59,109 bases of DNA from Chromera velia (lineage: Eukaryota). The stretch is taken from contig JAHBMJ010000032.1 of NCBI GenBank assembly GCA_018398765.1, forward strand, positions 1-59,109. Reading direction: 5' to 3'. The position numbers and the translations under genes are program-made. Of this stretch, positions 1-42,175 are shown piece by piece. Within the stretch, counting starts at the first letter, position 1. Each line of letters begins with the position of its first letter. Under the pieces are notes generated by a model, which worked only from the letters and a program-made list of their open reading frames with translations, did no database searches and was not told the origin of the DNA.

Positions 1-1658
1 GACACGTTACACAGCTGATGCAGGGATGCTGTTAGACAGACGCCTCTCTCAGATGAGCTTTCCTGCCAAGCTGGCCTGTCTCTGGACCTTTGCAGAGTCA
101 ATCCCCCCCAAACAGGCCTGGGCGTTGCTCTATACGAAAGGAGTGAAGGAATTCGAGTTTTCTGTAAAACAGGTGCGCAGATTCTATCGGCACGTCCGCA
201 CCTATGTACAGGAATATAACCTCCTGGAAGAAAGTCTGGGGGGGGGCAGACTCGGAGGCCGCCACACCTGCGAAAAAGGAGACGAATGTGACTGCCCGGG
301 AGTGCGAAAGGAAGATCTGAAGGACCATCTGTTTGGAAAGTCAACCGAGTGGAGAACTCCTCCCCCCCCAGGATAAGAGAAGAACGGAAAGAGGGCCCTG
401 CTCACCTGTGTTCAGGTTGATGAAAGTCAGTTAGTCAGACTTTTAATGACTCCCTGTCTCCCCCTGCACGCCAGATGCCAGTGTTTGCCCTTGGAAGTCA
501 GGTGCCTGCCAGTGTGTCCTCGAGTCTGCATGCAAGTATCCAGACACAAAGTACATCAATCAATCGATCGATGAATTATAGTTGCACAGTCAGTCAGTCA
601 GATCAGTCAAATTGAATCATGCACTAATTGCAAATTGATGGAGCATTATTCTTTGTGTGCTTCGTTCACTTTGTGTGTGCCTGCCTGCTTGCAGTCTGTA
701 TGCAGACGCACTTCAAAAAGAAGAAACAAGTAGCACGCGAGACGGGTCAGCCAGTCCGAAAGCAGACTCAGCTTGAGAATTGGGTTTGCGGATGTGTGGA
801 TCAACACACAGGCAGATTTCGTTTTCGCATCTTGCCAGAAGGAAGGTGCACGCGCAACAAAGACGAGCTGATGGGCTTTGTTTTGGATGTCTGCGATGCA
901 TGTACGTTTCTTGTATTAGATGCATTGAAGGCGTATTGCCCTCGCACACTTGTACGCGAAGCCATCTTGCATGAAAGTGTGAAGCATAGAGGGGGGAAAT
1001 TGCTTTCAGACAAAACTGATCAAAGTGGGGCAGCTCTCCATACACAACAGATTGAGTCTTTGTGGAGGCGGATTCGTTTTTTTTTGGCTGTGTACAATTT
1101 GCAGAGGCAGCAACCGAGGGGGGACTACCGGTGCCCAGCCGTCTGCGCGAGGAACAGAGATCTGGCTCCGCTTTGAGCTGCCCTGAAGCTACTCGTCAGC
1201 CTCCGCTCTGCGCATATCTGCATGAGTGGCAGTTCAAGTGGAATGAGAAAGTTTTCCAGCATCCCCAGTCAGGATTTGCAAAGCTGATCCGTGTAATCAG
1301 GTTTGTTCAGCCAGTGTTGGGGATGGTTGCTCCTGTGAGAAGGAAAAAAGCATGCAGGACGGCGGGGCAAGGAAGAAACGATGAGACAGAAACAGAGACC
1401 GAGACAGAAGAAGAAGGAAGACAGGGTCGGCTGAAAAGAACACGTCACTCTGCTTGTGGTCATAGGACTGACCAGCAAAATCAGTTGCATGCACATGCAT
1501 GCGACTGCGTTGGTGGGGATCGGGGGGCCGGTGGGGGTTCTTCTGCTTCTTTCTCCCAAGTGTCTGTGCTGCCTTTAGAACCTTCTGCACTGCTGCCTGC
1601 CGGGCCACCCGTTCGTAGCGAGAGATCTGCAGACAGAGAGGGAGAGATGAGAGATTAA
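1..1658 (+). pseudogene. Merlin/ISXO2 transposase copy 1, disrupted
   Basis: CAA>TAA nonsense at 374, S>L next to the second catalytic Asp (LVLDA vs LVSDA), and a 1-bp deletion near 1126 (GGACTA vs GGACCTA) that shifts frame. Confidence 0.85.
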
Positions 1659-2320
1659 TGCATATGTGTATTGAATTTCATGCGTGAGAATTAAATGGCA
1701 TTGCATGAAAAAAGAATATAGGGGGCAGGGGGTGGGTAGGGAAGGTAACGTACCTGAGAGGGTTGAAGGGAAGTGTGTGTGCAGTGCTCGTGCCCTTTCT
1801 TCTGATGGCACGATTTGCAGAGGAGTTCACAGCACTCGAACTCGATGAGGAATGACTTCAGCGTCTCCTTTGCACCAACTAGATCCACTGGCCAATAAAA
1901 AGTAGACAAAGAAGTCTTCAGTTCTCCCTCTCCGTGTGTATGTGCATGTGTCCCGCCACGCAGTTCCGGTAGAGGAAGTGCAGTGTGATGGAAGTCACCT
2001 CCATAAACAAACAATACAAAAGGATTATCTGAAGATCCATTATTCTCTCCTTCATCATCATTTTCTCTTTCTTTTTCTCTTATCTTTCTTTCTCTTGAAA
2101 GGTCTGTTTCGCAGTTTTTACATCGATTCTGATGTGCCTGACGGCACGGAGTCAACATTAGCCTTCTTCTTTCATCCTTATGCCACTCTCCCCAGTATAC
2201 ATTTTCTATGAAAGAAGTCAAAATATCTTTTACCTCATCTTTTTGTACTGTTCTCTCTGTATATATAGATAGAAGCTTGGAAAACTCTGTTTCTGCTGCC
2301 TGAGACCTTGTTAAAACCAT
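1297..2320 (-). CDS. HNH endonuclease-like protein copy 1 (exons 2320-1754 and 1626-1297, ~298 aa if spliced)
   Basis: Motif order CKNCET...DFHH...IEFECCELLCKSCHQKKGH matches zinc-binding HNH nucleases (CxxC...FHH...CxLLCxxCH). Phase-0 intron CAG|GTACGT ... pyrimidine tract CTGCAG|ATC joins in frame to ORF 1297-1608. Confidence 0.7.
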
Positions 2321-2466
2321 TTTGGCTTACAAAGTTTTCTTCTCAATGATGACCCTATACACCTTCCTCATATACACATTCTCTTTTCATTCAATCTATT
2401 CTTGTATCTTGGAAGATCTCTCTGTACGCGTGTTGACTGTGTTATTTCATACAACATGCGTCTGTA

Positions 2467-2621
2467 GCTAGAGAGCTTAGCCGAGCTTAAAGTGGTAAGC
2501 CGGCAGGCCCCTGGCCCTAGCGTTTTATTCTGTGTATGGGCGAGCCGCTAAGCAATTGTGGCGGCGCCCACTGGGTTCTCATCCTAGGGTTTCCAGCCAA
2601 CCCTCAAATATGCATCAAACC
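2467..2621 (+). ncRNA. Putative structured RNA at the transposon right end (also at 5586-5740 and 8680-8834)
   Basis: Nested stems with G-U pairs on the + strand: GCTAG/CTAGC, GCCG-GCTTA/TAAGC-CGGC, GGCC/GGCC, TGTGTAT/ATATGCA, GGGCG-GCCGC/GTGGC-CGCCC, CTGGG/CCTAG, GGTT/AACC. Fold inferred by eye; no expression evidence. Confidence 0.4.
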
Positions 2622-2897
2622 CTCGGCTTGAAGCCCTCAGATGAGAGGTTGGCCCCGAAAAGCTAGCTTCATACACTAAAAAAAAAAATGAGTTTGATTT
2701 TTTTTTAAATTCTGATTTTATAGTTTTTGTAGAGTTTTTCATAGGTTTTCAAACATTTTTTAAAACTTGAAATAAAATTGTAAAATAAAAAAGTAAAGAA
2801 ATGTCCTAAGGTGAGAAACCGTTCGATCCTCTAGAATTTTTCTAAAACTTTTATGATAGCGATGTTTCAATTCTATCTAGAACAGTAGAAAAACAAC

Positions 2898-4678
2898 ATG
2901 AAACCAGAAGAGATCACCTCATTAATTAGCGTGTTGGACTTTGTCCGCAACACGCCTCCTGCTGAGCTCTTCGACATTCTCTGTCAGTGGAGCCTCCTCT
3001 CAAAGGAAAAAACTTGCGATTGTGGGAAAGTATTCAAAACGTGGAAAAAGATCTCTGAAGAGGTTTCCTCTTTTCAGAGCTTTCTCGAAAAGAACTACGG
3101 AAAGTGTACCTGCAGATCGACACGTTACACAGCTGATGCAGGGATGCTGTTAGACAGACGCCTCTCTCAGATGAGCTTTCCTGCCAAGCTGGCCTGTCTC
3201 TGGACCTTTGCAGAGTCAATCCCCCCCAAACAGGCCTGGGCGTTGCTCTATACGAAAGGAGTGAAGGAATTCGAGTTTTCTGTAAAACAGGTGCGCAGAT
3301 TCTATCGGCACGTCCGCACCTATGTACAGGAATATAACCTCCTGGAAGAAAGTCTGGGGGGGGGCAGACTCGGAGGCCGCCACACCTGCGAAAAAGGAGA
3401 CGAATGTGACTGCCCGGGAGTGCGAAAGGAAGATCTGAAGGACCATCTGTTTGGAAAGTCAACCGAGTGGAGAACTCCTCCCCCCCCAGGACAAGAGAAG
3501 AACGGAAAGAGGGCCCTGCTCACCTGTGTTCAGGTTGATGAAAGTCAGTCAGTCAGACTTTTGATGACTCCCTGTCTCCCCCTGCACGCCAGATGCCAGT
3601 GTTTGCCCTTGGAAGTCAGGTGCCTGCCAGTGTGTCCTCGAGTCTGCATGCAAGTATCCAGACACAAAGTATATCAATCGATCGATCGATGAATTATAGT
3701 TGCACAGTCAGTCAGTCAGATCAGTCAAATTGAATCATGCACTAATTGCAAATTGATGGAGCATTATTCTTTGTGTGCTTCGTTCACTTTGTGTGTGCCT
3801 GCCTGCTTGCAGTCTGTATGCAGACGCACTTCAAAAAGAAAAAACAAGTAGCACGCGAGACGGGTCAGCCAGTCAGAAAGCAGACCCAGCTTGAGAATTG
3901 GGTTTGCGGATGTGTGGATCAACACACAGGCAGATTTCGTTTTCATATCTTGCCAGAAGGAAGGTGCGCGCGCAACAAAGACGAGCTGACGGGCTTTGTT
4001 TTAGATGTCTGCGATGCATGTACGTTTCTTGTATCAGATGCATTGAAGGCGTATTGCCCTCGCACGCTTGCACGCAAAGCCATCTTACATGAAAGTGTGA
4101 AGCATAGAGGGGGGAAATTGCTTTCAAACAAAACTGATCAAAGTGGGGCAGCTCTCCATACACAACAGATTGAGTCTCTGTGGAGGCGCATTCGTTTTTT
4201 TTTGGCTGTGTACAATTTGCAGAGGCAGCAACCGAGGGGGGACCTACCGGTGCCCAGCCGTCTGCGCGAGGAACAGAGATCTGGCTCCGCTTTGAGCTGC
4301 CCTGAAGCTGCTCGTCAGCCTCCGCTCTGCGCATATCTGCATGAGTGGCAGTTCAAGTGGAATGAGAAAGTTTTCCAGCATCCCCAGTCAGGATTTGCAA
4401 AGCTGATCCGTGTAATTAGGTTTGTTCAGCCAGTGTTGGGGATGGTTGCTCCTGTGAGAAGGAAAAAAGCATGCGGGACGGTGGGGCAAGGAAGAAACGA
4501 TGAGACAGAAACAGAGACCGAGACAGAAGAAGAAGGAAGACAGGGTCGGCTGAAAAGAACACGTCACTCTGCTTGTAGTTATGGGACTGACCAGCAAAAT
4601 CAGTTGCATGCACATGTATGCGACTGCGTTGGTGGGGATTGGGGGGCCGGTGGGGGTTCTTCTGCTTCTTTCTCCTAA
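2898..4678 (+). CDS. Merlin/ISXO2-like (IS1595 family) DDE transposase copy 2, one intron (~3544/3552 to ~3812/3823)
   Basis: N-terminal Zn-ribbon-like LLSKEKTCDCGK...KCTC, then VQVDES, WVCGCVD, LVSDALKAY, HESVKH, HTQQIESLW and YLHEWQFKWN, the canonical ISXO2/Merlin motif series. Exact splice sites are ambiguous (two in-frame GT-AG pairs). A CAA>TAA at 4676 trims only the tail. Confidence 0.88.
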
Positions 4679-5439
4679 GTGTCTGTGCTGCCTTTAGAAC
4701 CTTCTGCACTGCTGCCTGCCGGGCCACCCGTTCGTAGCGAGAGATCTGCAGACAGAGAGGGAGAGATGAGAAATTAATGCATATGTGTATTGAATTTCAT
4801 GCGTGAAAATTAAATGGCATTGCATGAAAAAAGAATATAGGGGGCAGGGGGTGGGTAGGGAAGGTAACGTACCTGAGAGGGTTGAAGGGAAGTGTGTGTG
4901 CAGTGCTCGTGCCCTTTCTTCTGATGGCACGATTTGCAGAGGAGTTCACAGCACTCGAACTCGATGAGGAATGACTTCAGCGTCTCCTTTGCACCAACTA
5001 GATCCACTGGCCAATAAAAAGTAGACAAAGAAGTCTTCAGTTCTCCCTCTCCGTATGTGTGTGCATGTATCCCGCCACGCAGTTCCAGTAGAGGAAGTGC
5101 AGTATGATGGAAGTCACCTCCATAAACAAACAATACAAAAGGATTATCTGAAGATCCATTATTCTCTCCTTCATCATCATTTTCTCTTTCTTTTTCTCTT
5201 ATCTTTCTTTCTCTCGAAAGGTCTGTTCCGCAGTCTTTACATCGATTCTGATGTGCCTGACGGCACGGAGTCAACATTAGCCTTCTTCTTTCATCCTTAT
5301 GCCACTCTCCCCAGTATACATTTTCTATGAAAGAAGTCAAAATATCTTTTACCTCATCTTTTTGTACTGTTCTCTCTGTATATATAGATAGAAGCTTGGA
5401 AAACTCTGTTTCTGCTGCCTGAGACCTTGTTAAAACCAT
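4416..5439 (-). CDS. HNH endonuclease-like protein copy 2 (exons 5439-4873 and 4745-4416)
   Basis: CKDCG...DFHH...CELLCKSCH motif, intact ATG, phase-0 GT-AG intron 4746-4872. Confidence 0.72.
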
Positions 5440-6016
5440 TTTGGCTTACAAAGTTTTCTTCTCAATGATGACCCTATACACCTTCCTCATATACACATTC
5501 TCTTTTCATTCAATCTATTCTTGTATCTTGGAAGATCTCTCTGTACGCGTGTTGACTGTGTTATTTCATACAACATGCGTCTGTAGCTAGAGAGCTTAGC
5601 CGAGCTTAAAGTGGTAAGCCGGCAGGCCCCTGGCCCTAGCGTTTTATTCTGTGTATGGGCGAGCCGCTAAGCAATTGTGGCGGCGCCCACTGGGTTCTCA
5701 TCCTAGGGTTTCCAGCCAACCCTCAAATATGCATCAAACCCTCGGCTTGAAGCCCTCAGATGAGAGGTTGGCCCCGAAAAGCTAGCTTCATACACTAAAA
5801 AAAAAAATGAGTTTGATTTTTTTTTAAATTCTGATTTTATAGTTTTTGTAGAGTTTTTCATAGGTTTTCAAACATTTTTTAAAACTTGAAATAAAATTGT
5901 AAAATAAAAAAGTAAAGAAATGTCCTAAGGTGAGAAACCGTTCGATCCTCTAGAATTTTTCTAAAACTTTTATGATAGCGATGTTTCAATTCTATCTAGA
6001 ACAGTAGAAAAACAAC

Positions 6017-7882
6017 ATGAAACCAGAAGAGATCACCTCATTAATTAGCGTGTTGGACTTTGTCCGCAACACGCCTCCTGCTGAGCTCTTCGACATTCTC
6101 TGTCAGTGGAGCCTCCTCTCAAAGGAAAAAACTTGCGATTGTGGGAAAGTATTCAAAACGTGGAAAAAGATCTCTGAAGAGGTTTCCTCTTTTCAGAGCT
6201 TTCTCGAAAAGAACTACGGAAAGTGTACCTGCAGATCGACACGTTACACAGCTGATGCAGGGATGCTGTTAGACAGACGCCTCTCTCAGATGAGCTTTCC
6301 TGCCAAGCTGGCCTGTCTCTGGACCTTTGCAGAGTCAATCCCCCCCAAACAGGCCTGGGCGTTGCTCTATACGAAAGGAGTGAAGGAATTCGAGTTTTCT
6401 GTAAAACAGGTGCGCAGATTCTATCGGCACGTCCGCACCTATGTACAGGAATATAACCTCCTGGAAGAAAGTCTGGGGGGGGGCAGACTCGGAGGCCGCC
6501 ACACCTGCGAAAAAGGAGACGAATGTGACTGCCCGGGAGTGCGAAAGGAAGATCTGAAGGACCATCTGTTTGGAAAGTCAACCGAGTGGAGAACTCCTCC
6601 CCCCCCAGGACAAGAGAAGAACGGAAAGAGGGCCCTGCTCACCTGTGTTCAGGTTGATGAAAGTCAGTCAGTCAGACTTTTGATGACTCCCTGTCTCCCC
6701 CTGCACGCCAGATGCCAGTGTTTGCCCTTGGAAGTCAGGTGCCTGCCAGTGTGTCCTCGAGTCTGCATGCAAGTATCCAGACANNNNNNNNNNATGAATT
6801 ATAGTTGCACAGTCAGTCAGTCAGATCAGTCAAATTGAATCATGCACTAATTGCAAATTGATGGAGCATTATTCTTTGTGTGCTTCGTTCACTTTGTGTG
6901 TGCCTGCCTGCTTGCAGTCTGTATGCAGACGCACTTCAAAAAGAAGAAACAAGTAGCACGCGAGACGGGTCAGCCAGTCCGAAAGCAGACTCAGCTTGAG
7001 AATTGGGTTTGCGGATGTGTGGATCAACACACAGGCAGATTTCGTTTTCGCATCTTACCAGAAGGAAGGTGCGCGCGCAACAAAGACGAGCTGACGGGCT
7101 TTGTTTTGGATGTCTGCGATGCATGTACATTTCTTGTATCAGATGCATTGAAGGCGTATTGCCCTCGCACGCTTGCATGCGAAGCCATCTTGCATGAAAG
7201 TGTGAAGCATAGAGGGGGGAAATTGCTTTCAGACAAAACTGATCAAAGTGGGGCGGCTCTCCATACACAACAGATTGAGTCTCTGTGGAGGCGCATTCGT
7301 TTTTTTTTGGCTGTGTACAATTTGCAGAGGCAGCAACCGAGGGGGGACCTACCGGTGCCCAGCCGTCTGCGCGAGGAACAGAGATCTGGCTCCGCTTTGA
7401 GCTGCCCTGAAGCTGCTCGTCAGCCTCCGCTCTGCGCATATCTGCATGAGTGGCAGTTCAAGTGGAATGAGAAAGTTTTCCAGCATCCCCAGTCAGGATT
7501 TGCAAAGCTGATCCGTGTAATCAGGTTTGTTCAGCCAGTGTTGGGGATGGTTGCTCCTGTGAGAAGGAAAAAAACATGTGGGACGGCGGGGCAAGGAAGA
7601 AACGATGAAACAGAAACAGAGACCGAGACAGAAGAAGAAGGAAGACAGGGTCGGCTGAAAAGAACACGTCACTCTGCTTGTGGTCATAGGACTGACCAGC
7701 AAAATCAGTTGCATGCACATGCATGCGACTGCGTTGGTGGGGATCGGGGGGCCGGTGGGGGTTCTTCTGCTTCTTTCTCCCAAGTGTCTGTGCTGCCTTT
7801 AGAACCTTCTGCACTGCTGCCTGCCGGGCCACCCGTTCGTAGCGAGAGATCTGCAGACAGAGAGGGAGAGATGAGAGATTAA
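6017..7882 (+). CDS. Merlin/ISXO2-like transposase copy 3 (apparently intact; N gap falls within the intron)
   Basis: ORFs 6017-6838 and 6851-7882 together carry all DDE motifs without stops. Confidence 0.85.
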
Positions 7883-8533
7883 TGCATATGTGTATTGAAT
7901 TTCATGCGTGAGAATTAAATGGCATTGCATGAAAAAAGAATATAGGGGGCAGGGGGTGGGTAGGGAAGGTAACGTACCTGAGAGGGTTGAAGGGAAGTGT
8001 GTGTGCAGTGCTCGTGCCCTTTCTTCTGATGGCACGATTTGCAGAGGAGTTCACAGCACTCGAACTCAATGAGGAATGACTTCAGCGTCTCCTTTGTACC
8101 AACTAAATCCACTGGCCAATAAAAAGTAGACAAAGAAGTCTTCAGTTCTCCCTCTCCGTATGTGTGTGCATGTGTCCCGCCACGCAGTTCCGGTAGAGGA
8201 AGTGCAGTATGATGGAAGTCACCTCCATAAACAAATAATACAAAAGAATTATCTGAAGATCTATTATTCTCTCCTTCATCATCATTTTCTCTTTCTTTTT
8301 CTCTTATCTTTCTTTCTCTCGAAAGGTCTGTTCCGCAGTCTTTACATCGATTCTGATGTGCCTGACGGCACGGAGTCAACATTAGCCTTCTTCTTTCATC
8401 CTTATGCCACTCTCCCCAGTATACATTTTCTATGAAAGAAGTCAAAATATCTTTTACCTCATCTTTTTGTACTGTTCTCTCTGTATATATAGATATAAGC
8501 TGTTTCTGCTGTCTGAGACCTTGTTAAAACTAT
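7521..8533 (-). pseudogene. HNH endonuclease-like gene copy 3, 5'-disrupted
   Basis: ATG lost (CCAT>CTAT at 8531) and an ~11-bp deletion near 8500; the HNH motif is retained downstream. Confidence 0.7.
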
Positions 8534-9044
8534 TTTGGCTTACAAAGTTTTCTTCTCAATGATAACCCTATACACCTTCCTCATATATATATTCTCTTTT
8601 CATTCAATCTATTCTTGTATCTTGGAAGATCTCTCTGTACGCGTGTTGACTGTGTTATTTCATACAACATGCGTCTGTAGCTAGAGAGCTTAGCCGAGCT
8701 TAAAGTGGTAAGCCGGCAGGCCCCTGGCCCTAGCGTTTTATTCTGTGTATGGGCGAGCCGCTAAGCAATTGTGGCGGCGCCCACTGGGTTCTCATCCTAG
8801 GGTTTCCAGCCAACCCTCAAATATGCATCAAACCCGCCGCGGCCGCCATGCGCGGCCGCCGCGCCGCCGCCTCCATGCAGCCGTTTCATGCAGGGGGCCG
8901 ACGTCATTCCGAGGGGGTAGAGTCTTCGAACTTTCAGCAGCGAAGGACCTTATCCATCTTCGAGCATACACTAGAGTGGTGTGCCTTTTTCAACAGTCTG
9001 CAACTGATCCAGAAGGACAACGTCGAGAATACCTGGCCAGCACA

Positions 9045-10473
9045 ATGAAGTTCGCCTTCATTCTCTTTGCCGTCTTTTTCTGCCTGAGCACCGCGTTTGA
9101 ATGCGGTAACTATTCCAATTGTGACGAGTGCGTGAAGTACGCCGGATGCCAGTGGGCCCCCCGTGTGGGACGTTGCATGAAGTCTGACGACGCTGCCTCT
9201 GCTGGACACCCCATCGTTACGGGTCTTTCCTGCGAATGCCGTGAGTTTTTTTCTAGCTTCTTTTTGCTTCTCATCCTGATCACCGCTTTCGCTCTCTGAT
9301 AGCTCGTGTGCTGCGATTCACGTCATCTGCTGAGAGTACTTATCGCCGTTTTTGATGCTGGAAGGCAGAATTGCCTTGGGGATCAGTGGTGCACTGTTCT
9401 GTTCGGAGTCCATCAGATTCCCCGTGTCCGTCTCCTCTCCTTCCAGCAAGTGTTCGCGTGCGGGCGTCGTTGACTTCCTCTCGTGGCCCAAGTTCGCATT
9501 ACGCTTGCATTCCTGTGACCTGAGAGGAAATGCAGACACTGACAAATGCCTCCTCCTGCGCACATACTTACACACACACGAACACACACATTGACTGCAG
9601 TCGGCATCTCGTCTTGCGAGGACTGTGCCAAGAAGGCGGCCTACTGCGCGTGGTGCCAGAAGAGCGACGGCTGGTACACGAGGAACATGTGCGTGTCCAA
9701 CAAGTCCGAGAACGAGGAGAGGTGCGACGTTGCTTACGCCTCCATGGCAATGGACTGCCCCAAGAAGAAGGTACGCGGATGGATCTACTGGTCCACTCAT
9801 CTGCTTTAGTGAACTCACGAAGGCATCCATACAAGATGCAGAAAGCAATCAATGTTTTCACACAACCCTGTTCCCGTCACAGGGCCCCCTTCCTTCCTTG
9901 ATTTGCTTTCGATGGCTTGGTGGTCTTCTCGCGTGTCTTGCCGATTGTGACTTTTAGTTATCGCAATCCCATTTTGTCCGTACTCTCGTATCTCCTTGTA
10001 CCCCCGCAAGGCACTTTTTTTCCCGGTAATTTGTTGTGCTTCTTGCATCCGTTCTCCTTCCCCGAGGCACTCTGTGATGATGCACATCCGAGAGGCTCCT
10101 TCTGAATGAAGCATGTGAACAACAGCACCCTTTCCTGTGCTCTCTCAGCTGCTGGCCTGTGTGCGTGTGCGTCGAACAGCCCCTGTCTTCTCTCGGCATC
10201 TCACTCTCTCCTTCCTTCCGTATGCATGTCCCTCTCTTCTGTCTTCTGGTATCTTCGATCTTTCCTAACATTTGCATTCCCGTTCATCAAGTTTGGCAGT
10301 TTGGTTCCCGGCCTTTCACAAATCGATGCACAGAAGCAAATTAAGGACCTAAGAGAGCCTGCGTGCTGCCTTTACAGTCACTCGTTTTCCTGCATGCCCC
10401 TTTGTTGTTTGCCCTCCTGTCTACCTGCTTGCAGGTGTTCCTCGGGAAGAAGGACGAGAGGGTGTTTGCTTAA
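9045..10473 (+). CDS. Small secreted Cys-rich protein with two PSI/plexin-like repeats (exons 9045-9240, 9601-9770, 10435-10473; ~134 aa)
   Basis: Signal peptide MKFAFILFAVFFCLSTA; repeats C..YSNCDECV....CQW and SSCEDCA....CAWC; GT-AG introns with consistent phases. Confidence 0.75.
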
Positions 10474-21426: not shown

Positions 21427-25728
<4,302 letters not shown>

Positions 25729-30350: not shown

Positions 30351-31138
30351 CTGTCGGTCTGGTTTGATAGCGTCTCTTTCTCACCGTCAATCTCTACCCG
30401 TCTCTGTGAGGTATTTCGCTTTTGCGGAAACCAGCCCTTCGAAAAAATTACCGCATATAAAGCCCTGCACTATTTACTACAAGGCAGAAGGGCTGAAGCG
30501 CGTAATCTCCACCCTTGGGATGTCTGCTTCTTGTGCTTCACCTAAGAGCGAGACACAGTGACACACGAACTGCTCAGACGTCTCTGCGGCCCCGCCACTT
30601 GTTTACGATTACAAAGGTCAACAGTCGAGAAATTCCGGAGTGCAGGATGGGTGAAGGTCTCTATCTGTGTGTCTGTCTTCCGAAGTACTTCCCTGGAGGG
30701 TCTGGGGCTCTAGCTGAGCTGCGAATGGCTTCTCCATAATAGTCTCCATTCAAGGGCAAAAACAAAGTTCAGACTGCCCGTTGGCGTTGCGCGGGCCGGT
30801 GCAACACTCAAGATGGCCGCGCGGTCCCCGCGCCCCGAAAAAAAAAAAAATCAGCACGCAAAGAGACGCTCAATTTCAGTCGTTCACTTTGAATGAGCCT
30901 TTCAATCAGACAGTAGATTCGGACTTTGACTTCAACTCGATCACCCCAGAAGAAGCGCACCAAAGCCACCTGACGAGAGTGGAAGCCGGGACGCGGGTCT
31001 TTTTCGTTTGTTTACCGTGAAGTTGGTGAATTCAATTCTTTGCATTTAGGTTAACCTTCGATCCTCCACAAGTCGACTGACTGCACCTTTGGAGACTGGA
31101 AAGTCCACTGATCCCCTTCCTTCCTTCCTTTGGCTTCA

Positions 31139-32234
31139 ATGGGGAACGCCACCAGTTCCTTCGATGAGGGGTCGAATCCCAACCCAAAGTATGTCCCTGA
31201 GGGCGTGTGGTTGAGCGACAGTGCGTCCAGGACAGCCCCCTCCGCAACTCTGGCCATCAATGAATTGTCAAAGCAGCTACAAGCGGAGGGGAAGGAGATT
31301 TACCGCATGGGACTCGGCCAGAGCCCCTTCCCCGTTCCGCCCCCCCTCGTAAAGGCCCTTGCAGAGTGTGCAGCCCAGAAAGACTATCTACCAGTTCAAG
31401 GTCTTCTGGCTTTGAGGGAAGCCATTGCCGCCTGGTTGTCTGCACCTCCCAGTCTGACAGGCTCTCCCGTCTCCGGGGCAAAGTTCGAAGTTGACAACAT
31501 CATCGTAGGCCCGGGCACGAAGGAGCTGATGTTCACTCTCCAGTTCTGTCTGGATGCAGAGCTTCTGCTGCCGTCTCCTAGCTGGGTCTCGTACGCTCCT
31601 CAGGCGAACCTTCTGGGTAGGAAGGTGCGGTGGCTGGAGACGAAAAAGGAGAATGGGTGGAAGCTGGACCCTCTTTCTCTGCAGACTTTCTTGAAGTCCC
31701 CGAGCCAGTCTCGATGGAAGACAAAGCTGCTGGTCCTGAACTTCCCCTGCAACCCCACAGGCAGCGCCTTCAGTGCAGAGGAACTGAAGCAGCTCGCCGA
31801 AGTGCTCAAAGACTTCCCAGAGGTCAGTGCGGGCAGTCAGAAGAAGACAGGTGCGTGGAGGAGGCAGGAGACGGGGGGTAAGAACAGGGCACGGACAGAA
31901 AAGAAGAGCAAATAGAGGGGAGTCTTGTGAAGCGGGGAGGGACTGGGGAATATGTGGGGTGCTCTCCTCGTACGCGATGGAGCGGACTAAACTCTCTCTG
32001 TGTCTCTCCAAGAGAAAAGGAAATATGCTGCGTGTCCATCTGACATTTTTTGTTTCCCTGTGTGTCCTGACTCATCTTTGCAGGTTGTTGTGCTTTCTGA
32101 TGAGATCTATTCGTTGACGAACTTCACTAAGGAAGGGCACACAAGCATTGCACAGTACCTGCCTGACAGAACGTGCATCTCGAACGGCCTCTCGAAGTGG
32201 GCAGGGGCAGGTGAGTGTTTTGTGGCATGAACTG

Positions 32235-32265
<31 letters not shown>

Positions 32266-32306
32266 TCGATGGATAGAGACTGCGAGATAGAGAGACGGGC
32301 GCAGAG

Positions 32307-32346
<40 letters not shown>

Positions 32347-33922
32347 GCAGCGAAAAGACAGGTGTGCAGGTCGCGGTGAAGGTCTCGACCTCTGGATGCT
32401 TCAGTTGGCTGCCTGGATTGGAACTGAAACTTTTGGCACACCGCTTGCCTGCCTTTCCTCGGCCGTCTGCCTTCCTTCAGAAGACCCAGGATGAAATTTA
32501 AATCTACTCTGCATGCATGCAATGAACAAGCTGACCGATTCTTTCACTTCTGTCTTCCCCTCTCTTGACTGTTTCCTTCCTTCGTCCTTGCTCCTTGCCT
32601 CTCTTCTCCTTTTTTTTTCTCGTCCCTTCCTTCTCCGAAACCAACTCTCCAGCCCCCCTCCGGAAGTCGAACAACTGTCGTGATCTTCCTCTTTTCTGTT
32701 CTCAACTGCTTTCCTGTCCTCTCTGGTTTCGCGTCCCTGCAGGTGGATGGCGACTCGGTTTTCTGGCTCTTCCCTCTGCCCTGGTGAAGGTCAGGAAGGC
32801 CATCTGCGGGGTCGCGTCTGAGACCTTCTCCTGCGTTGCTGCCCCCATCCAGCATGCATCCATTGTGGCGTTCGACAGTCAGAACAGCGGGATGATTTCC
32901 TTTTTGAAGACTCAGAGGAAGGTCAACGCGAGGATCGTGAGGGCGGCAGCAGAAGCTTTGAAGGCAGGGGGAGTGCCTGTGCTGGAGCCTTCAGGAGGGT
33001 TTTACTTGTGGGCAGATCTGTCTGGAGTCGGGTCTGTGCGGAGAAGATTCAAAGAAGGAGTCAAAATGTCAGAGGCCCTCTTGAGACAGCATGGTGGGTT
33101 CTTTCTTCTTTTTTTTTTCTGATTGCTTCAGTCGACGTTGCGGTCCTGCACTTGCGTCACCGCTTCTTTCCTCTTTAGCGTGCGCGTCTCTTGAGAGAGA
33201 TTTCTCCCCTTCCTTTCAACCTGTTTTGTGTGCCTGCGAGTGCCCTGTTCCGTTCAATCAATTGGTCTCGAGCTAAATTTTGCACCAGAAATTCAAAACA
33301 CCCCTTGGTAATTTTTGACTGAGTGCCCTGCCTCGTTGAAGTATCCGTCTCTCTTCGTGTGTCGGTGGGTGGTCTTTGAATGCCTCGATCGATCTGTCTT
33401 TCAAATGCTCTCTCTTGCTGTGCTGTGCTGTGCAGGGGTCGCGCTGTTGGCAGGCAGCCACTTCGGTCGTCCAAAAGAGGAGCTCACTGTCCGCATCGCA
33501 GCTGTGGACTTTGACGGTGCTGCGGCCATGGCGGCGGCTGCAGCGGAGCAGTCGGAGGGAGAGGCGGGGGAAAGCAAAGAAAGGGACGAGGTGTTCTGCA
33601 GGTACGTGAGCAAGGAGGTGGTGTTCGCATGCGGGGATATGTCTGCGCGTACGTGTGTGACGGGAGAGAAAACAGGGCCACTTGTTTCTTTTGTTTCAGA
33701 TTTTCCTGTACTGTTTTCTGCGCTCTGCATTCGAATTGGGAGGGAAGAACATGCCTGCATGCCGTTTTGCTTCCTGCCTATCTTCTTGAGTGCACCTGTG
33801 TAACCGTCCAGGTTCTCTACTTGAGCACGTGAGATGTGTGAGAACTACGAAAACGCTTCTCTCTCTCTTTTCCTCCCTCTCTCACTCTCTCTCCCTCCCT
33901 CCCTCCTTCCCTCTCTCTTTCG

Positions 33923-39736: not shown

Positions 39737-41326
39737 TCAGCTGTCAACTCGCTTTTTCTTCTCTTCAAACAGACTTACAAGACGAGCAAGCTCTTCATCT
39801 TTCATAAAGACGGTTTCATTCATTTTATACGCATGCTGAATGTAAAAAAACACAGACGAAAGTGGGACGTTATCGACGCGAATCTTTTTAGGCTTCCTGT
39901 TTCGGCCTAACTGCCAAAGGAGAGAGAAAGCACGCATGTTGGCTAAGTTGGTCGAAGCCTCGTCGGACTCCGGATATATATGCACAGCAATCCGGTACAG
40001 TTCATCTAGGTCCCTTTCTTCATCTTCAACGTATGCAATCGCTCGCAACCCTGAGGGCTCAAAAGCTTTCTTCTTATCATTCCACGACAAAATGTTCACC
40101 ACCTTGGAAACGTACCAACTCAGTTTTCTCTCCAAGCCCTCACCTTCATCATACTGGCACGCCACGAGTTGTCCTACCATGATAGAATACTCGCCTTTCC
40201 GAATCAATGGCCTGACTGTGGGACTTCGCACGCACTCTCACCCCCCGATCGTTTGACAACTTCTCTTAATACAAGAGAGCACAAACCGCACTCAACCGTA
40301 TCATACCGCGGTTTGGTACTTCAAAAGAGACAACCCCTGTCGCCCCCCCTTGCTTCTCTTCAGGTGTCGTCACCGCTCGTGCAAAGACAGAAAGGGACTG
40401 TTCTTGTGCTGCGTCTTCTATTTGAAACTGCTCCCGCAAGCTTTTAAGTTCTTCTCCCTCTGGTGTGTCATCCAACTCAATGGGGATCTCTACATCCATC
40501 ACCACCCACTCGTCATCTTCAATGTCCCCCCCCTCCCTGGCCCCCTCCCCAGCCTCCTCCTCCCCTTCCTCTCTACTCTCCCCTCCCTCAGCGGCCGCTT
40601 CATCGCTCTCGGCATTGCCATGTTCCGCATGTTCTCACATCTCCCCCTTGGTGGGCTTGTATGAACCCATGTTCACGTGAGCACTCCAGTCCCATGAAAG
40701 TGCGGTACTCTCTGAGAGTTTGATCTTCTCCAGCCCCTCTGCCATCTCTATCTTCCTCAAGTCCTCCCAGCATCGACGGAGACCTTCCTTGATACATTCA
40801 TGATCTCGTCGCTCATCTCCCGGCACGTTTCTCTGTAGGGAGCATTGTACCAAGGAATGTCAGATCTCGTCTTCTTACTATAGAACGACCGTTCGTAGTT
40901 GATAGCACCTGTGGTCTCGTTTCTGTGCTTGCTATCCAGGGAAGAGTTGATGCGGGCGATCTTCCGCAACAAAGACAGATACAGAAAATTGATCTGAAAG
41001 CTTGACCCCGGGCACAAAACACGGAGAAAACGGAAAGTGTGCTCACCTTCCTGGGAGCCAAGACACTGGGCATGCAGCTCAATGTTAGGATGGTTCTCTC
41101 TCAAGAATCGAACGAGGGCAACAAATCCGTGGAAACACACTTCAATGCACAACTCTGTGTTCCGAGTGAGCATATGCGTTTTTCGGGGTTTCTTTGCATA
41201 CCTCTTAACGTAGACACCCCAATGTCGCACACTCCACATCGCTTGGGCGATCCGAGAAACTTTCTCTCTCAACCCAATGTCGTTGTCGTTGAAGCACGTA
41301 TCGACACAGATGCTGATTCGGATCAA
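39737..41326 (-). pseudogene. C-terminal part of a P-element/THAP9-like DDE transposase (frameshifted)
   Basis: MLTRNTELCIEVCFHG...LGSQEGEHTFRFLR...INF resembles the SQxxE..FR.LR final-catalytic-Glu region of P-like transposases. Broken into ORFs 40757-41326, 40266-40505 and 39737-40231. Confidence 0.5.
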
Positions 41327-41329
41327 TTT

Positions 41330-42175
41330 TCCCCAAGACGGGTTTCAGATTGCGACAACTTTGAAGAGAAATGTGATACTCTGATTAAAGAAGGCAAAGA
41401 AAAGGGCCTTTTTCCAAAACATTGTGATACTCGTTTCCATGCAGAAACTTTTTTTCGCTTTGGGGTGCCTGATGCAAAGGAACTTTTGTGTATGACGGCA
41501 AAGCAGTTTGATTTGTTCGCTCAGTCTGAGTGGGGGAAACTCTGGAAGCCGTATGATCTGGAAATATGGAAGAGGGCTGTATTCGGCAATGCCTTCACAG
41601 AAATGAGCAGATCCATGGCTCAACACACTCATCGGGAACGAGGTAAGAGACAGTTGCAGGAAGAAGTGGACGCTGCCAGTGGGGGAAAAAGGAAGAAAGG
41701 GAATGGAGACGGCCTACTAGTAGATGGACCCTCAGAGGGAGACGGAGAAGGAGGTGAATCGGAGGAAGAGGGAGGGGACGATCAATCGGAGATAAGTGAT
41801 GAAGATGCACCCCCTGCCTCTCTCTGGATCAACAAGGTTATAGTTGAGCTCGCTAAGGTGACCTACAAAAACTTTGTTGCTCCTGCGTGTCTTCACGTCG
41901 GACGAATCAGGAAGCACAGGGGAAGGGATGGTTACTGGGACGGCAAAGCGTGGTCTGCAAAGCTTCGTTGCAAGGTGTGTGCAGCAGAGATCAATCTGAG
42001 TGATGTGTCCCCTGAAGAGAAAAAGGAGTGGGAAGAGAAAGGGCAGAAATGTGTAGCCCACACGAAGAGCAACGTAAAGGTTGACACTTTCATGAAGCAC
42101 ATCAAAGCAAAGAGCGGTTGTCACGCATCAAACAGTGACACCATTACCATTCAAGAAAATGGTTTCAAAGCTTGA
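41330..42175 (+). pseudogene. Zinc-finger-bearing (CxxC...H...H) fragment, probably a transposase N-terminal part
   Basis: LRCKVCAAEI...FMKHIKAKSGCH after an acidic linker and NLS-like GKRKK; no convincing ATG start. Confidence 0.4.

What the first reader, a model, noticed from the sequence alone, without database searches (positions are those of the whole stretch)
2625..5740. Merlin/IS1595-family transposon carrying an HNH nuclease gene and a structured right-end segment: candidate RNA-guided system
Seen: each unit encodes an ISXO2-type DDE transposase (+) and a convergent protein with CxxC...DFHH...CELLCKSCH (-), and ends in a ~150-nt GC-rich foldable segment. Established: eukaryotic Merlin elements are normally described with only a transposase, while transposon-encoded nucleases with an end-derived RNA (TnpB/Fanzor with RuvC, IscB/HEARO with HNH) are RNA-guided. 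Inference: this could be a compact HNH-only analogue, or an unguided homing-type nuclease that promotes retention or copying of the element. I see no RuvC motifs.
Basis: partly seen in the sequence, partly recalled or inferred. Interest (0 to 1): 0.92.

Follow-up and report, generated by a model that had tools for sequence, protein, structure and literature searches.

The report
Merlin transposon carrying phage-type HNH nuclease
A cut-and-paste jumping gene of a eukaryote, lying in head-to-tail copies, carries a second, spliced gene that resembles DNA-cutting enzymes of bacterial viruses and is kept in a sister family; it likely cuts the element's own DNA without an RNA guide and so would help the element multiply.

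Summary
The two-gene element is real. It is a 3.1-kb Merlin (IS1595-type) transposon in at least three head-to-tail copies, with an intact DDE triad and a convergent second gene. Spliced RNA contigs show both genes are transcribed and overlap antisense across most of the element; the second gene has five exons (302 aa; 298 aa if only intron 1 is removed). Its core matches a phage HNH endonuclease family (PHROG 2255/3106/4234) by sequence; fold support is weak. A sister family (transposase 65-74%, HNH 45% identical) has both ORFs on one transcript record, with all predicted catalytic and zinc residues kept, so the gene is likely under selection. The RNA-guided reading is not supported: the 150-nt right end folds no better than shuffles (z about -1.3), and there is no RuvC, PLMP, Nop or Rfam match. 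The closest known system is KolobokP (DDE plus opposite-strand His-Me nuclease, multimers), here reached independently with another transposase superfamily and another HNH lineage. Best model (0.4): a protein-directed nuclease that promotes array growth. No activity or target has been shown.

The parts
2625..5740 (+). One full Merlin unit (copy 2 of the array), GG...CC ends
1..2621 (+). Copy 1, cut by the window start; transposase broken (stop at codon 199, 1-nt deletion at 1124), HNH exon 1 open
5744..8834 (+). Copy 3, last of the array; transposase open (536 aa), HNH start codon lost and 11-bp deletion
2625..2668 (+). Left imperfect terminal inverted repeat, about 44 bp, apparently two sub-repeats
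5696..5740 (-). Right terminal region: outer end at 5740 (used by this array; 10 of 22 ungapped to the left end, better with gaps) and an inner repeat 5696-5717 (18 of 22; best of 100,374 control positions 16) at which other contigs leave the element
   Evidence: loose ends at 2598 (=5717) in X9 and X6
5741..5743 (.). 3-bp spacer between copies (also 2622-2624); a junction 5 nt longer, giving an 8-bp spacer, is the main form in run X4 and a minor one in X6
2898..3543 (+). Transposase exon 1 (N-terminal region, first catalytic D214)
3544..3812 (+). Transposase intron 1, GT..AG, 269 nt
   Evidence: spliced in X9; same position inferred in the sister from P0007 versus P0008
3813..4678 (+). Transposase exon 2 (D291, E336); ends at 503 aa in copy 2, 536 aa in copy 3
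3864..4222 (+). Optional intron, GT..AG, 359 nt, whose removal deletes D291 and E336 and shifts the frame (259-aa product)
   Evidence: (X9 joint 3862 to 1104 in copy-1 numbering); same acceptor inferred for the sister family
4873..5439 (-). HNH gene exon 1, 189 codons: predicted three-helix N-terminus and the whole HNH core (C67, C70, H111, H112, C164, C168, C171, H172); does not overlap the transposase ORF
4592..4745 (-). HNH gene exon 2; its first 35 or so codons (helix and basic RRKKQKNP stretch, likely a nuclear signal) are alike in the sister
4248..4336 (-). HNH transcript exon 3, antisense to the transposase
3524..3643 (-). HNH transcript exon 4, holds the stop codon (3547-3545)
2849..3109 (-). 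HNH transcript exon 5 (3' untranslated), with a poly(A)-like loose end at 2849 in X10
5590..5740 (.).

Best explanation
This is a Merlin DNA transposon in head-to-tail copies that carries a transcribed, spliced second gene for a predicted phage-type HNH nuclease, which likely recognises DNA through protein alone and would cut or nick the element's own DNA so that repair adds copies. Steps: (1, shown) DDE transposase and HNH gene lie convergently inside one pair of inverted ends and are both transcribed. (2, shown by comparison) the HNH gene travels with the transposase in two diverged families and keeps its metal and catalytic residues. (3, inferred) a dimer first forms without the nuclease, by a second insertion at the same target, leaving an 8-bp spacer that later lost 5 nt. 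(4, inferred) breaks made by the nuclease within the element or at end-to-end junctions are repaired from an out-of-register neighbour, lengthening the array, as proposed but untested for KolobokP. (5, inferred) antisense overlap and a splice form lacking the catalytic core damp both activities.
For: Same transcript record for sister transposase and sister HNH (ORFs g.92194 and g.92193 of Transcript_46700), and JGI records of both with longest contig 2306 nt. HNH 45% identical (82 of 182) yet 11 of 13 columns conserved in the viral family are identical in both proteins; exon 1 does not overlap the transposase ORF, so this is not a shadow. Viral-family HMM scores 18.0 and 18.9 bits against shuffle maxima of 9.3 and 4.4 (500 each); the part upstream of the selecting motif scores 6.8 (0 of 500 shuffles reach it) and 3.7 (1 of 500). 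40 of 40 family members tested match PHROG HNH endonucleases 2255 and 3106. Multimers are prominent: three or more copies here; in 2 of 4 DNA runs the element is one contig that closes on itself across the end-to-end junction (X1 3149 nt, X4 3154 nt). KolobokP has the same layout and multimers (PMC9587614, sections read). The review PMC13565253 (section 6.3) argues that a protein-guided nuclease cannot serve restorative homing of a randomly inserting transposon, which leaves the element's own DNA as the stable target.
Against: No target site or activity is shown. Tandems of DNA transposons form and grow without any nuclease (PMC5932611, passages), and the 8-bp spacer variant fits that route, so the array does not need the HNH. 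A self-closing contig may be a circle rather than an array. Whether the sister family is multimeric could not be checked. A third relative (P0004, 44% identical transposase) has no HNH partner, though its DNA could not be fetched. Fold evidence is weak: no Foldseek hit at E<=0.001 in PDB or BFVD, best VIA Z 4.2, and the model was built on the viral alignment. The loops between motifs are about 25-30 residues longer than in the viral family. The element lacks the long terminal direct repeats on which the KolobokP model rests.
Confidence: 0.4

Rival explanations
1. Accessory nuclease of transposition: the HNH cuts the non-transferred strand or processes the donor or a circular intermediate, in the way TnsA serves TnsB in Tn7 (recalled) or as proposed for Kolobok accessory nucleases.
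For: Stable linkage to the transposase in two families; an added N-terminal helical bundle absent from short viral relatives; self-closing contigs with short end-to-end spacers could be circles; several Kolobok lineages carry accessory nucleases (PMC9587614 passages).
Against: [quoted passage not shown]
Confidence: 0.2
2. Free-standing homing endonuclease parasitising the transposon family: it cuts related Merlin copies that lack it and is copied into them by gene conversion.
For: Nearest relatives are free-standing phage HNH endonucleases; a more distant Merlin relative without a detected HNH exists; the HNH gene diverges faster (45%) than the transposase (65-74%).
Against: No HNH-less near-identical copy was seen in the four DNA runs (one search lists no skipping joint).
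Confidence: 0.15
3. Non-cutting or regulatory passenger: the antisense gene matters as RNA or as a DNA-binding protein that limits the transposase, and nuclease activity is lost or incidental.
For: Transcripts overlap over about 2.3 kb; exons 3-5 look like antisense by-products; the best-covered transposase contig lacks the catalytic core.
Against: H111, H112, H172 and all seven Cys of exon 1 are kept at 45% overall identity.
Confidence: 0.1
4. RNA-guided HNH-only nuclease: an RNA made from the right end, upstream of the HNH gene on the minus strand as for IscB, brings in a guide from the flank.
For: The geometry fits IscB: 301 nt between the end and the start codon, folding with z -2.5 (1 of 100 shuffles). 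HNH-only IscB relatives (IshB) exist (PMC10734217 passage). An RNA guide is the way for a randomly inserting element to re-target its flanks (PMC13565253).
Against: The named 150-nt segment is not unusually folded; no Rfam match at E<=5; no PLMP/RRXRR, RuvC or Nop family; about 225 conserved residues that are mostly a phage-type HNH leave little room for RNA binding and DNA opening (inference); in an array most flanks are the next copy.
Confidence: 0.07
5. Addiction module: a toxic, weakly specific nuclease held in check by the antisense transcript or another element product harms cells that lose or silence the element.
For: Weak resemblance to defence HNH effectors (PtuB E=0.008; McrA is the best PDB sequence match of the viral family, E=6e-4); full antisense overlap.
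Against: No antidote gene seen; copies with only one intact gene sit side by side; multicopy elements gain little from killing on loss (inference).
Confidence: 0.06

Closest known systems
KolobokP DNA transposons (PMC9587614; read: abstract, background, first results, section on multimers, passages)
   Same: DDE transposase on the direct strand, a His-Me/HNH nuclease downstream on the complementary strand, frequent multimers; proposed nuclease-induced unequal crossover (untested per PMC13565253 section 6.3).
   Different: Transposase is Merlin/IS1595, not Kolobok; nuclease is of a phage CxxC-FHH-CxLLCxxCH family, not the I-PpoI His-Cys box group; no 450-660 bp terminal direct repeats, only a 3- or 8-bp spacer; host appears to be a non-animal eukaryote; transcripts overlap antisense.
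Merlin superfamily / IS1595 family (PMC8101967; passages and second part of the section on protist families)
   Same: DDE_Tnp_IS1595 domain with intact triad, GG...CC ends, imperfect inverted repeats, 8-bp spacer variant equal to the usual duplication length.
   Different: Second gene for an HNH protein; the paper has no occurrence of HNH and reports only an unexplained 1-kb antisense ORF in Sy.k_F1. Whole-element tandem arrays were not in the passages I saw. Its supplements and Repbase were not examined.
Phage HNH endonucleases PHROG 2255/3106/4234 (McrA-like zinc HNH)
   Same: Order and identity of motifs; 11 of 13 conserved columns.
   Different: Longer inter-motif loops, extra N-terminal helical bundle, extra conserved Cys/His (C59, C163, H177, H179, C180), introns and a basic tail.
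OMEGA systems: IscB/HEARO, IshB, TnpB/Fanzor (PMC10734217 and PMC13565253, passages)
   Same: Nuclease gene carried inside a transposon near one end; IshB is also small and HNH-only.
   Different: No PLMP, RuvC or recognisable omega-RNA here; DDE rather than HUH or serine transposase; HNH of another lineage.

Membership tests
Merlin / IS1595 | DDE_Tnp_IS1595 domain with DDE triad | tested here: met
   E=0.0018 for the window exon, 9e-6 and 3e-6 for relatives, NF033547 2e-8, mostly below curated cut-offs; D214/D291/E336 present
Merlin / IS1595 | Terminal inverted repeats beginning with GG | tested here: met
   Both ends GG; imperfect; inner repeat 18 of 22
Merlin / IS1595 | 8-9 bp target site duplication | tested here: inconclusive
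   Left end of the array lies outside the window; an 8-bp inter-copy spacer in X4 and X6 is compatible
HNH (beta-beta-alpha-metal) nucleases, phage PHROG 2255/3106/4234 type | CxxC ... (F)HH ... ExxxCxLLCxxCH motifs in order | tested here: met
   (hhalign 80.9%, E=1.3e-5, 28 columns); family was fetched with the last motif, so partly circular
HNH (beta-beta-alpha-metal) nucleases, phage PHROG 2255/3106/4234 type | Beta-beta-alpha-metal fold | tested here: inconclusive
   Model pLDDT 78, pTM 0.72; 5 of the top 6 BFVD rows are named HNH but E 0.5-1.4; VIA rows over residues 51-186 are ZRANB3 HNH (Z 3.4, rmsd 4.9, 89 aligned) and Cap5 (Z 3.4, rmsd 3.8, 68; Z 3.3, rmsd 3.1, 68), all within noise
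HNH (beta-beta-alpha-metal) nucleases, phage PHROG 2255/3106/4234 type | DNA cleavage | not testable with these tools
   needs assay
KolobokP | Kolobok-type transposase with C/DxxH signature and TTAA-type ends | tested here: not met
   Transposase is IS1595-type
KolobokP | Long terminal direct repeats of 450-660 bp | tested here: not met
   Self-BLAST of the unit shows only whole-unit repeats
KolobokP | His-Me nuclease on the complementary strand downstream of the transposase; multimers | tested here: met
   nuclease lineage differs
IscB / IshB (OMEGA) | N-terminal PLMP (RRXRR) domain | tested here: not met
   No such Pfam or NCBIfam hit at E<=1; no PLMP motif in the sequence
IscB / IshB (OMEGA) | Structured omega-RNA (HEARO) upstream of the ORF | tested here: inconclusive
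   No Rfam match; z -1.3 for the 150-nt end, -2.5 for 301 nt; no homologous ends for covariation
TnpB / Fanzor | RuvC nuclease domain | tested here: not met
   No RuvC/TnpB family hit
TIGR-Tas (features recalled; paper seen only as a search listing) | Nop domain and tandem guide array | tested here: not met
   No Nop hit; no short-repeat array within the unit among the families shown or in the self-BLAST

The most novel reading that the evidence does not exclude
A eukaryotic Merlin transposon recruited a phage HNH nuclease and made it RNA-guided through a structured RNA spanning the 300 nt between the right end and the HNH start: a RuvC-less, roughly 225-residue guided nickase of independent origin, which in arrays would be aimed at the element's own left end.
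Probability: 0.07. Interest if true: 0.93.

Novelty: new variant of a known kind. Interest (0 to 1): 0.6.

Why it matters
If the nuclease is active, this is a second, independent origin of the KolobokP design (DDE transposase, opposite-strand HNH, multimers) from a different transposase superfamily and a phage-type HNH. Convergence would argue that a protein-guided nuclease can pay its way in a transposon, a point that PMC13565253 lists as awaiting experiment. At 3.1 kb, with no long terminal repeats, a small nuclease and a sister family for comparison, it makes that question easy to test. It also suggests transfer of a phage-type gene into a eukaryotic element followed by intron gain. I found no Merlin with an HNH gene in searches (open-access library only; Repbase and supplements not seen).

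Tried and rejected
No whole genome is held, so copy number, left end and duplication could not be read. Scans for relatives' DNA found nothing: transposase in metagenome, viral and prokaryote contigs, HNH in metagenome and viral contigs; so sister ends could not be compared for covariation. Direct homolog searches gave only the window's own cluster and one sister cluster; P0010 is a repeat-driven Drosophila hit and was dropped. PDB sequence search and phage tblastn gave only chance hits. A two-sequence AlphaFold model (pLDDT 41) and its Foldseek search were uninformative. Complex prediction of sister transposase with sister HNH gave no answer (score 0.00, alignments not used); it says nothing either way. 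No RNA holder was on record as RNA; the runs used are guesses, accepted because they show GT-AG joints that 4 of 4 DNA runs lack. No listed RNA contig ran through this array's right end, but contigs cannot show small RNAs, so this is no evidence. A 120-nt sliding fold scan (208 windows, 20 shuffles) gave low z at 5475-5624, but the nearest window refolded with 200 shuffles gave -1.28; low z at 5655-5804 comes from the two ends pairing across the junction. Synonymous/non-synonymous counts among the three copies are too few, and the HNH count is inflated by the deletion in copy 3; not used. Contig depths hint at tens of copies but are not a copy number. The host was not determined: near-identical or sister proteins are labelled as three dinoflagellate transcriptomes, which may be mixed cultures; a literature search on a guessed alveolate genus gave nothing relevant. 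Earlier scan notes held nothing on this genome or sequence.
Full report
Anatomy. The first 8.8 kb of the window are a head-to-tail array of a 3119-bp unit: a partial copy (1-2621), a full copy (2625-5740) and a last copy (5744-8834), 97.6-98.4% identical, with no further copy in the window. Units begin with GG, end with CC and are separated by 3 bp. The ends are imperfect inverted repeats. The outer right end matches the first 22 nt of the left end at 10 positions without gaps; an inner repeat at 5696-5717 matches at 18, against a best of 16 among 100,374 control positions. One contig in X9 and two in X6 leave the element exactly at that inner end, so both ends may be used. The array's left end is outside the window and no genome is held, so its target duplication is unknown.

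Transposase. Exon 1 (2898-3543) and exon 2 (from 3813) give a protein with D214, D291 and E336. It matches DDE_Tnp_IS1595 weakly (E=0.0018); two relatives match better. With GG ends this files the element as Merlin by the features given in PMC8101967 (passages).

Transcription. Contigs of four RNA-type runs were laid on one period. X9 holds a contig with intron 3544-3812 removed and also 3864-4222; the second splice deletes D291 and E336 and gives 259 aa. X10, X11 and X12 (two studies) hold contigs with four CT..AC skips, i.e. minus-strand GT-AG introns; one 1115-nt contig of X12 joins all five exons, and X10 has a T run at 2849. None of these joints appears in 4 of 4 DNA runs. Contigs cannot say which copy is transcribed or at what level. 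A sister protein, P0006, follows the sister transposase for 72 residues and then reads 18 of 18 tail residues compatible with a +2 frame from the same acceptor region (best of 300 shuffles 12), so the sister also appears to make a form lacking the catalytic E. Whether this is regulation or cryptic splicing is open.

Is the second gene an HNH? Direct scans are weak: PHROG HNH E=0.03 and 0.45, PtuB E=0.008, ESM Atlas neighbours of viral HNH clusters at 0.90-0.92. I fetched 120 viral loci with a pattern for ExxKCxLLCxxCH. Of 121 ORFs, 115 had at least 50 residues upstream; all 115 had CxxC and 101 had an aromatic-H/D-H motif there. An HMM of those 101 scored the window protein 18.0 bits and the sister 18.9 (maxima of 500 shuffles 9.3 and 4.4); the upstream part alone scored 6.8 (0 of 500) and 3.7 (1 of 500). 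I aligned 40 of the 101 (96-164 aa): all 40 match PHROG HNH endonucleases 2255 and 3106, 12 match Pfam HNH, and McrA is the best PDB sequence match. In the joint alignment C67, C70, F110, H112, E160, C164, L166, L167, C168, C171 and H172 line up. By analogy with known HH-type HNH sites (recalled), H112 would be the general base and H111 and H172 metal ligands. The model from this alignment is fairly confident (pLDDT 78), but fold searches are only suggestive. I put about 0.9 on HNH ancestry and less on activity.

Is it maintained? The 1.84-billion-protein search gave 3 hits: the window's own cluster, one true relative (P0009, 45%) and a spurious repeat. P0009's cluster holds P0011, ORF g.92193 of Transcript_46700; the sister transposase P0003 is ORF g.92194 of the same record; JGI members of both clusters have a longest contig of 2306 nt. 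The sister transposase is 74% identical over exon 1 (160 of 215) and 65-73% over exon 2. In the sister HNH all 7 Cys of exon 1 and H111, H112, H172, H177, H179, H182 are kept, while four other His are not, and the first intron donor and the basic stretch after it are alike. So 2 of 3 known transposase clusters have the HNH gene; for the third (P0004, 44%) none was found and its DNA could not be fetched.

Right end. The one point for guidance is IscB-like geometry with z -2.5 over 301 nt on the minus strand. The protein lacks PLMP, RuvC and Nop matches.

Multimers. In X1 and X4 the element assembles as one contig that closes on itself through the end-to-end junction; X4's junction is 5 nt longer, an 8-bp spacer, also seen as a minor form in X6. 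Eight bp is the Merlin duplication length, which fits double insertion followed by expansion as shown for P-element dimers (PMC5932611 passages), with later loss of one 5-nt repeat. This explains the array's origin without a nuclease and is the main caution against my model. The copies here are decaying: 50 of 58 polarised differences are C to T on either strand (CpA 24, CpG 14, CpT 9, CpC 3), copy 1 has a broken transposase and copy 3 a broken HNH start.

Mechanism and comparison. KolobokP has a DDE transposase, a His-Me nuclease on the complementary strand and frequent multimers, and its authors propose nuclease-induced unequal crossover (PMC9587614); a 2026 review notes this is unconfirmed and that protein-guided nucleases cannot track changing flanks (PMC13565253). 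This element works plausibly like KolobokP but is not a member: other transposase, other HNH lineage, no long direct repeats. I give 0.4 to self-directed cutting that favours copy gain, 0.2 to an accessory role in transposition, 0.15 to homing among Merlin relatives, 0.1 to a non-cutting regulator, 0.07 to RNA guidance and 0.06 to addiction. Unchecked notes of this scan describe other two-gene Merlins in other genomes, which lowers the surprise of cargo as such but none has an HNH. Searches found no Merlin with an HNH gene; Repbase and the papers' supplements were not seen. Verdict: real, maintained, a new variant of a known kind; interest 0.6.

Noticed in passing
window 3119-5740 and its two other copies: 50 of 58 differences among copies are C-to-T changes, favouring CpG and CpA: looks like methylation-driven or RIP-like mutation of repeats in this host.
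   Followed up: partly
window 3864-4222: Splice form that deletes the catalytic core; the sister family seems to use the same acceptor with another donor. Could be a repressor form as in P elements (recalled).
   Followed up: partly
window 5696-5740: Two nested right ends; contigs leave at the inner one, and one X6 contig has a variant outer end of the same length after position 2608, hinting at a related family or non-autonomous copies.
   Followed up: partly
window 2242-2276 and 2389-2523 (copy 1): Contigs in X3, X6 and X10 hold short pieces of the element joined to other sequence: truncated copies elsewhere in the genome, some in transcripts.
   Followed up: no
window 40757-42175: Two facing, overlapping ORFs (195 aa minus, 389 aa plus) with no Pfam match at E<=0.05; by eye the minus one resembles a P/Kolobok-type transposase remnant (recalled motif, untested).
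   Followed up: partly
window 21427-25728: Multi-exon gene with peroxidase domains, likely a catalase-peroxidase (Pfam E=1e-24 for the last exon).
   Followed up: no
window 8835-9900: The array ends in a GC-rich stretch about 210 bp upstream of a gene for a secreted-looking PSI-repeat protein (Pfam E=6e-4).
   Followed up: no
window 31112-33122: Class I/II aminotransferase gene.
   Followed up: no
PMC8101967, family Sy.k_F1: A Symbiodinium Merlin with very imperfect ends has an unexplained 1-kb antisense ORF; worth scanning with the HNH profile, though nothing links it here.
   Followed up: no
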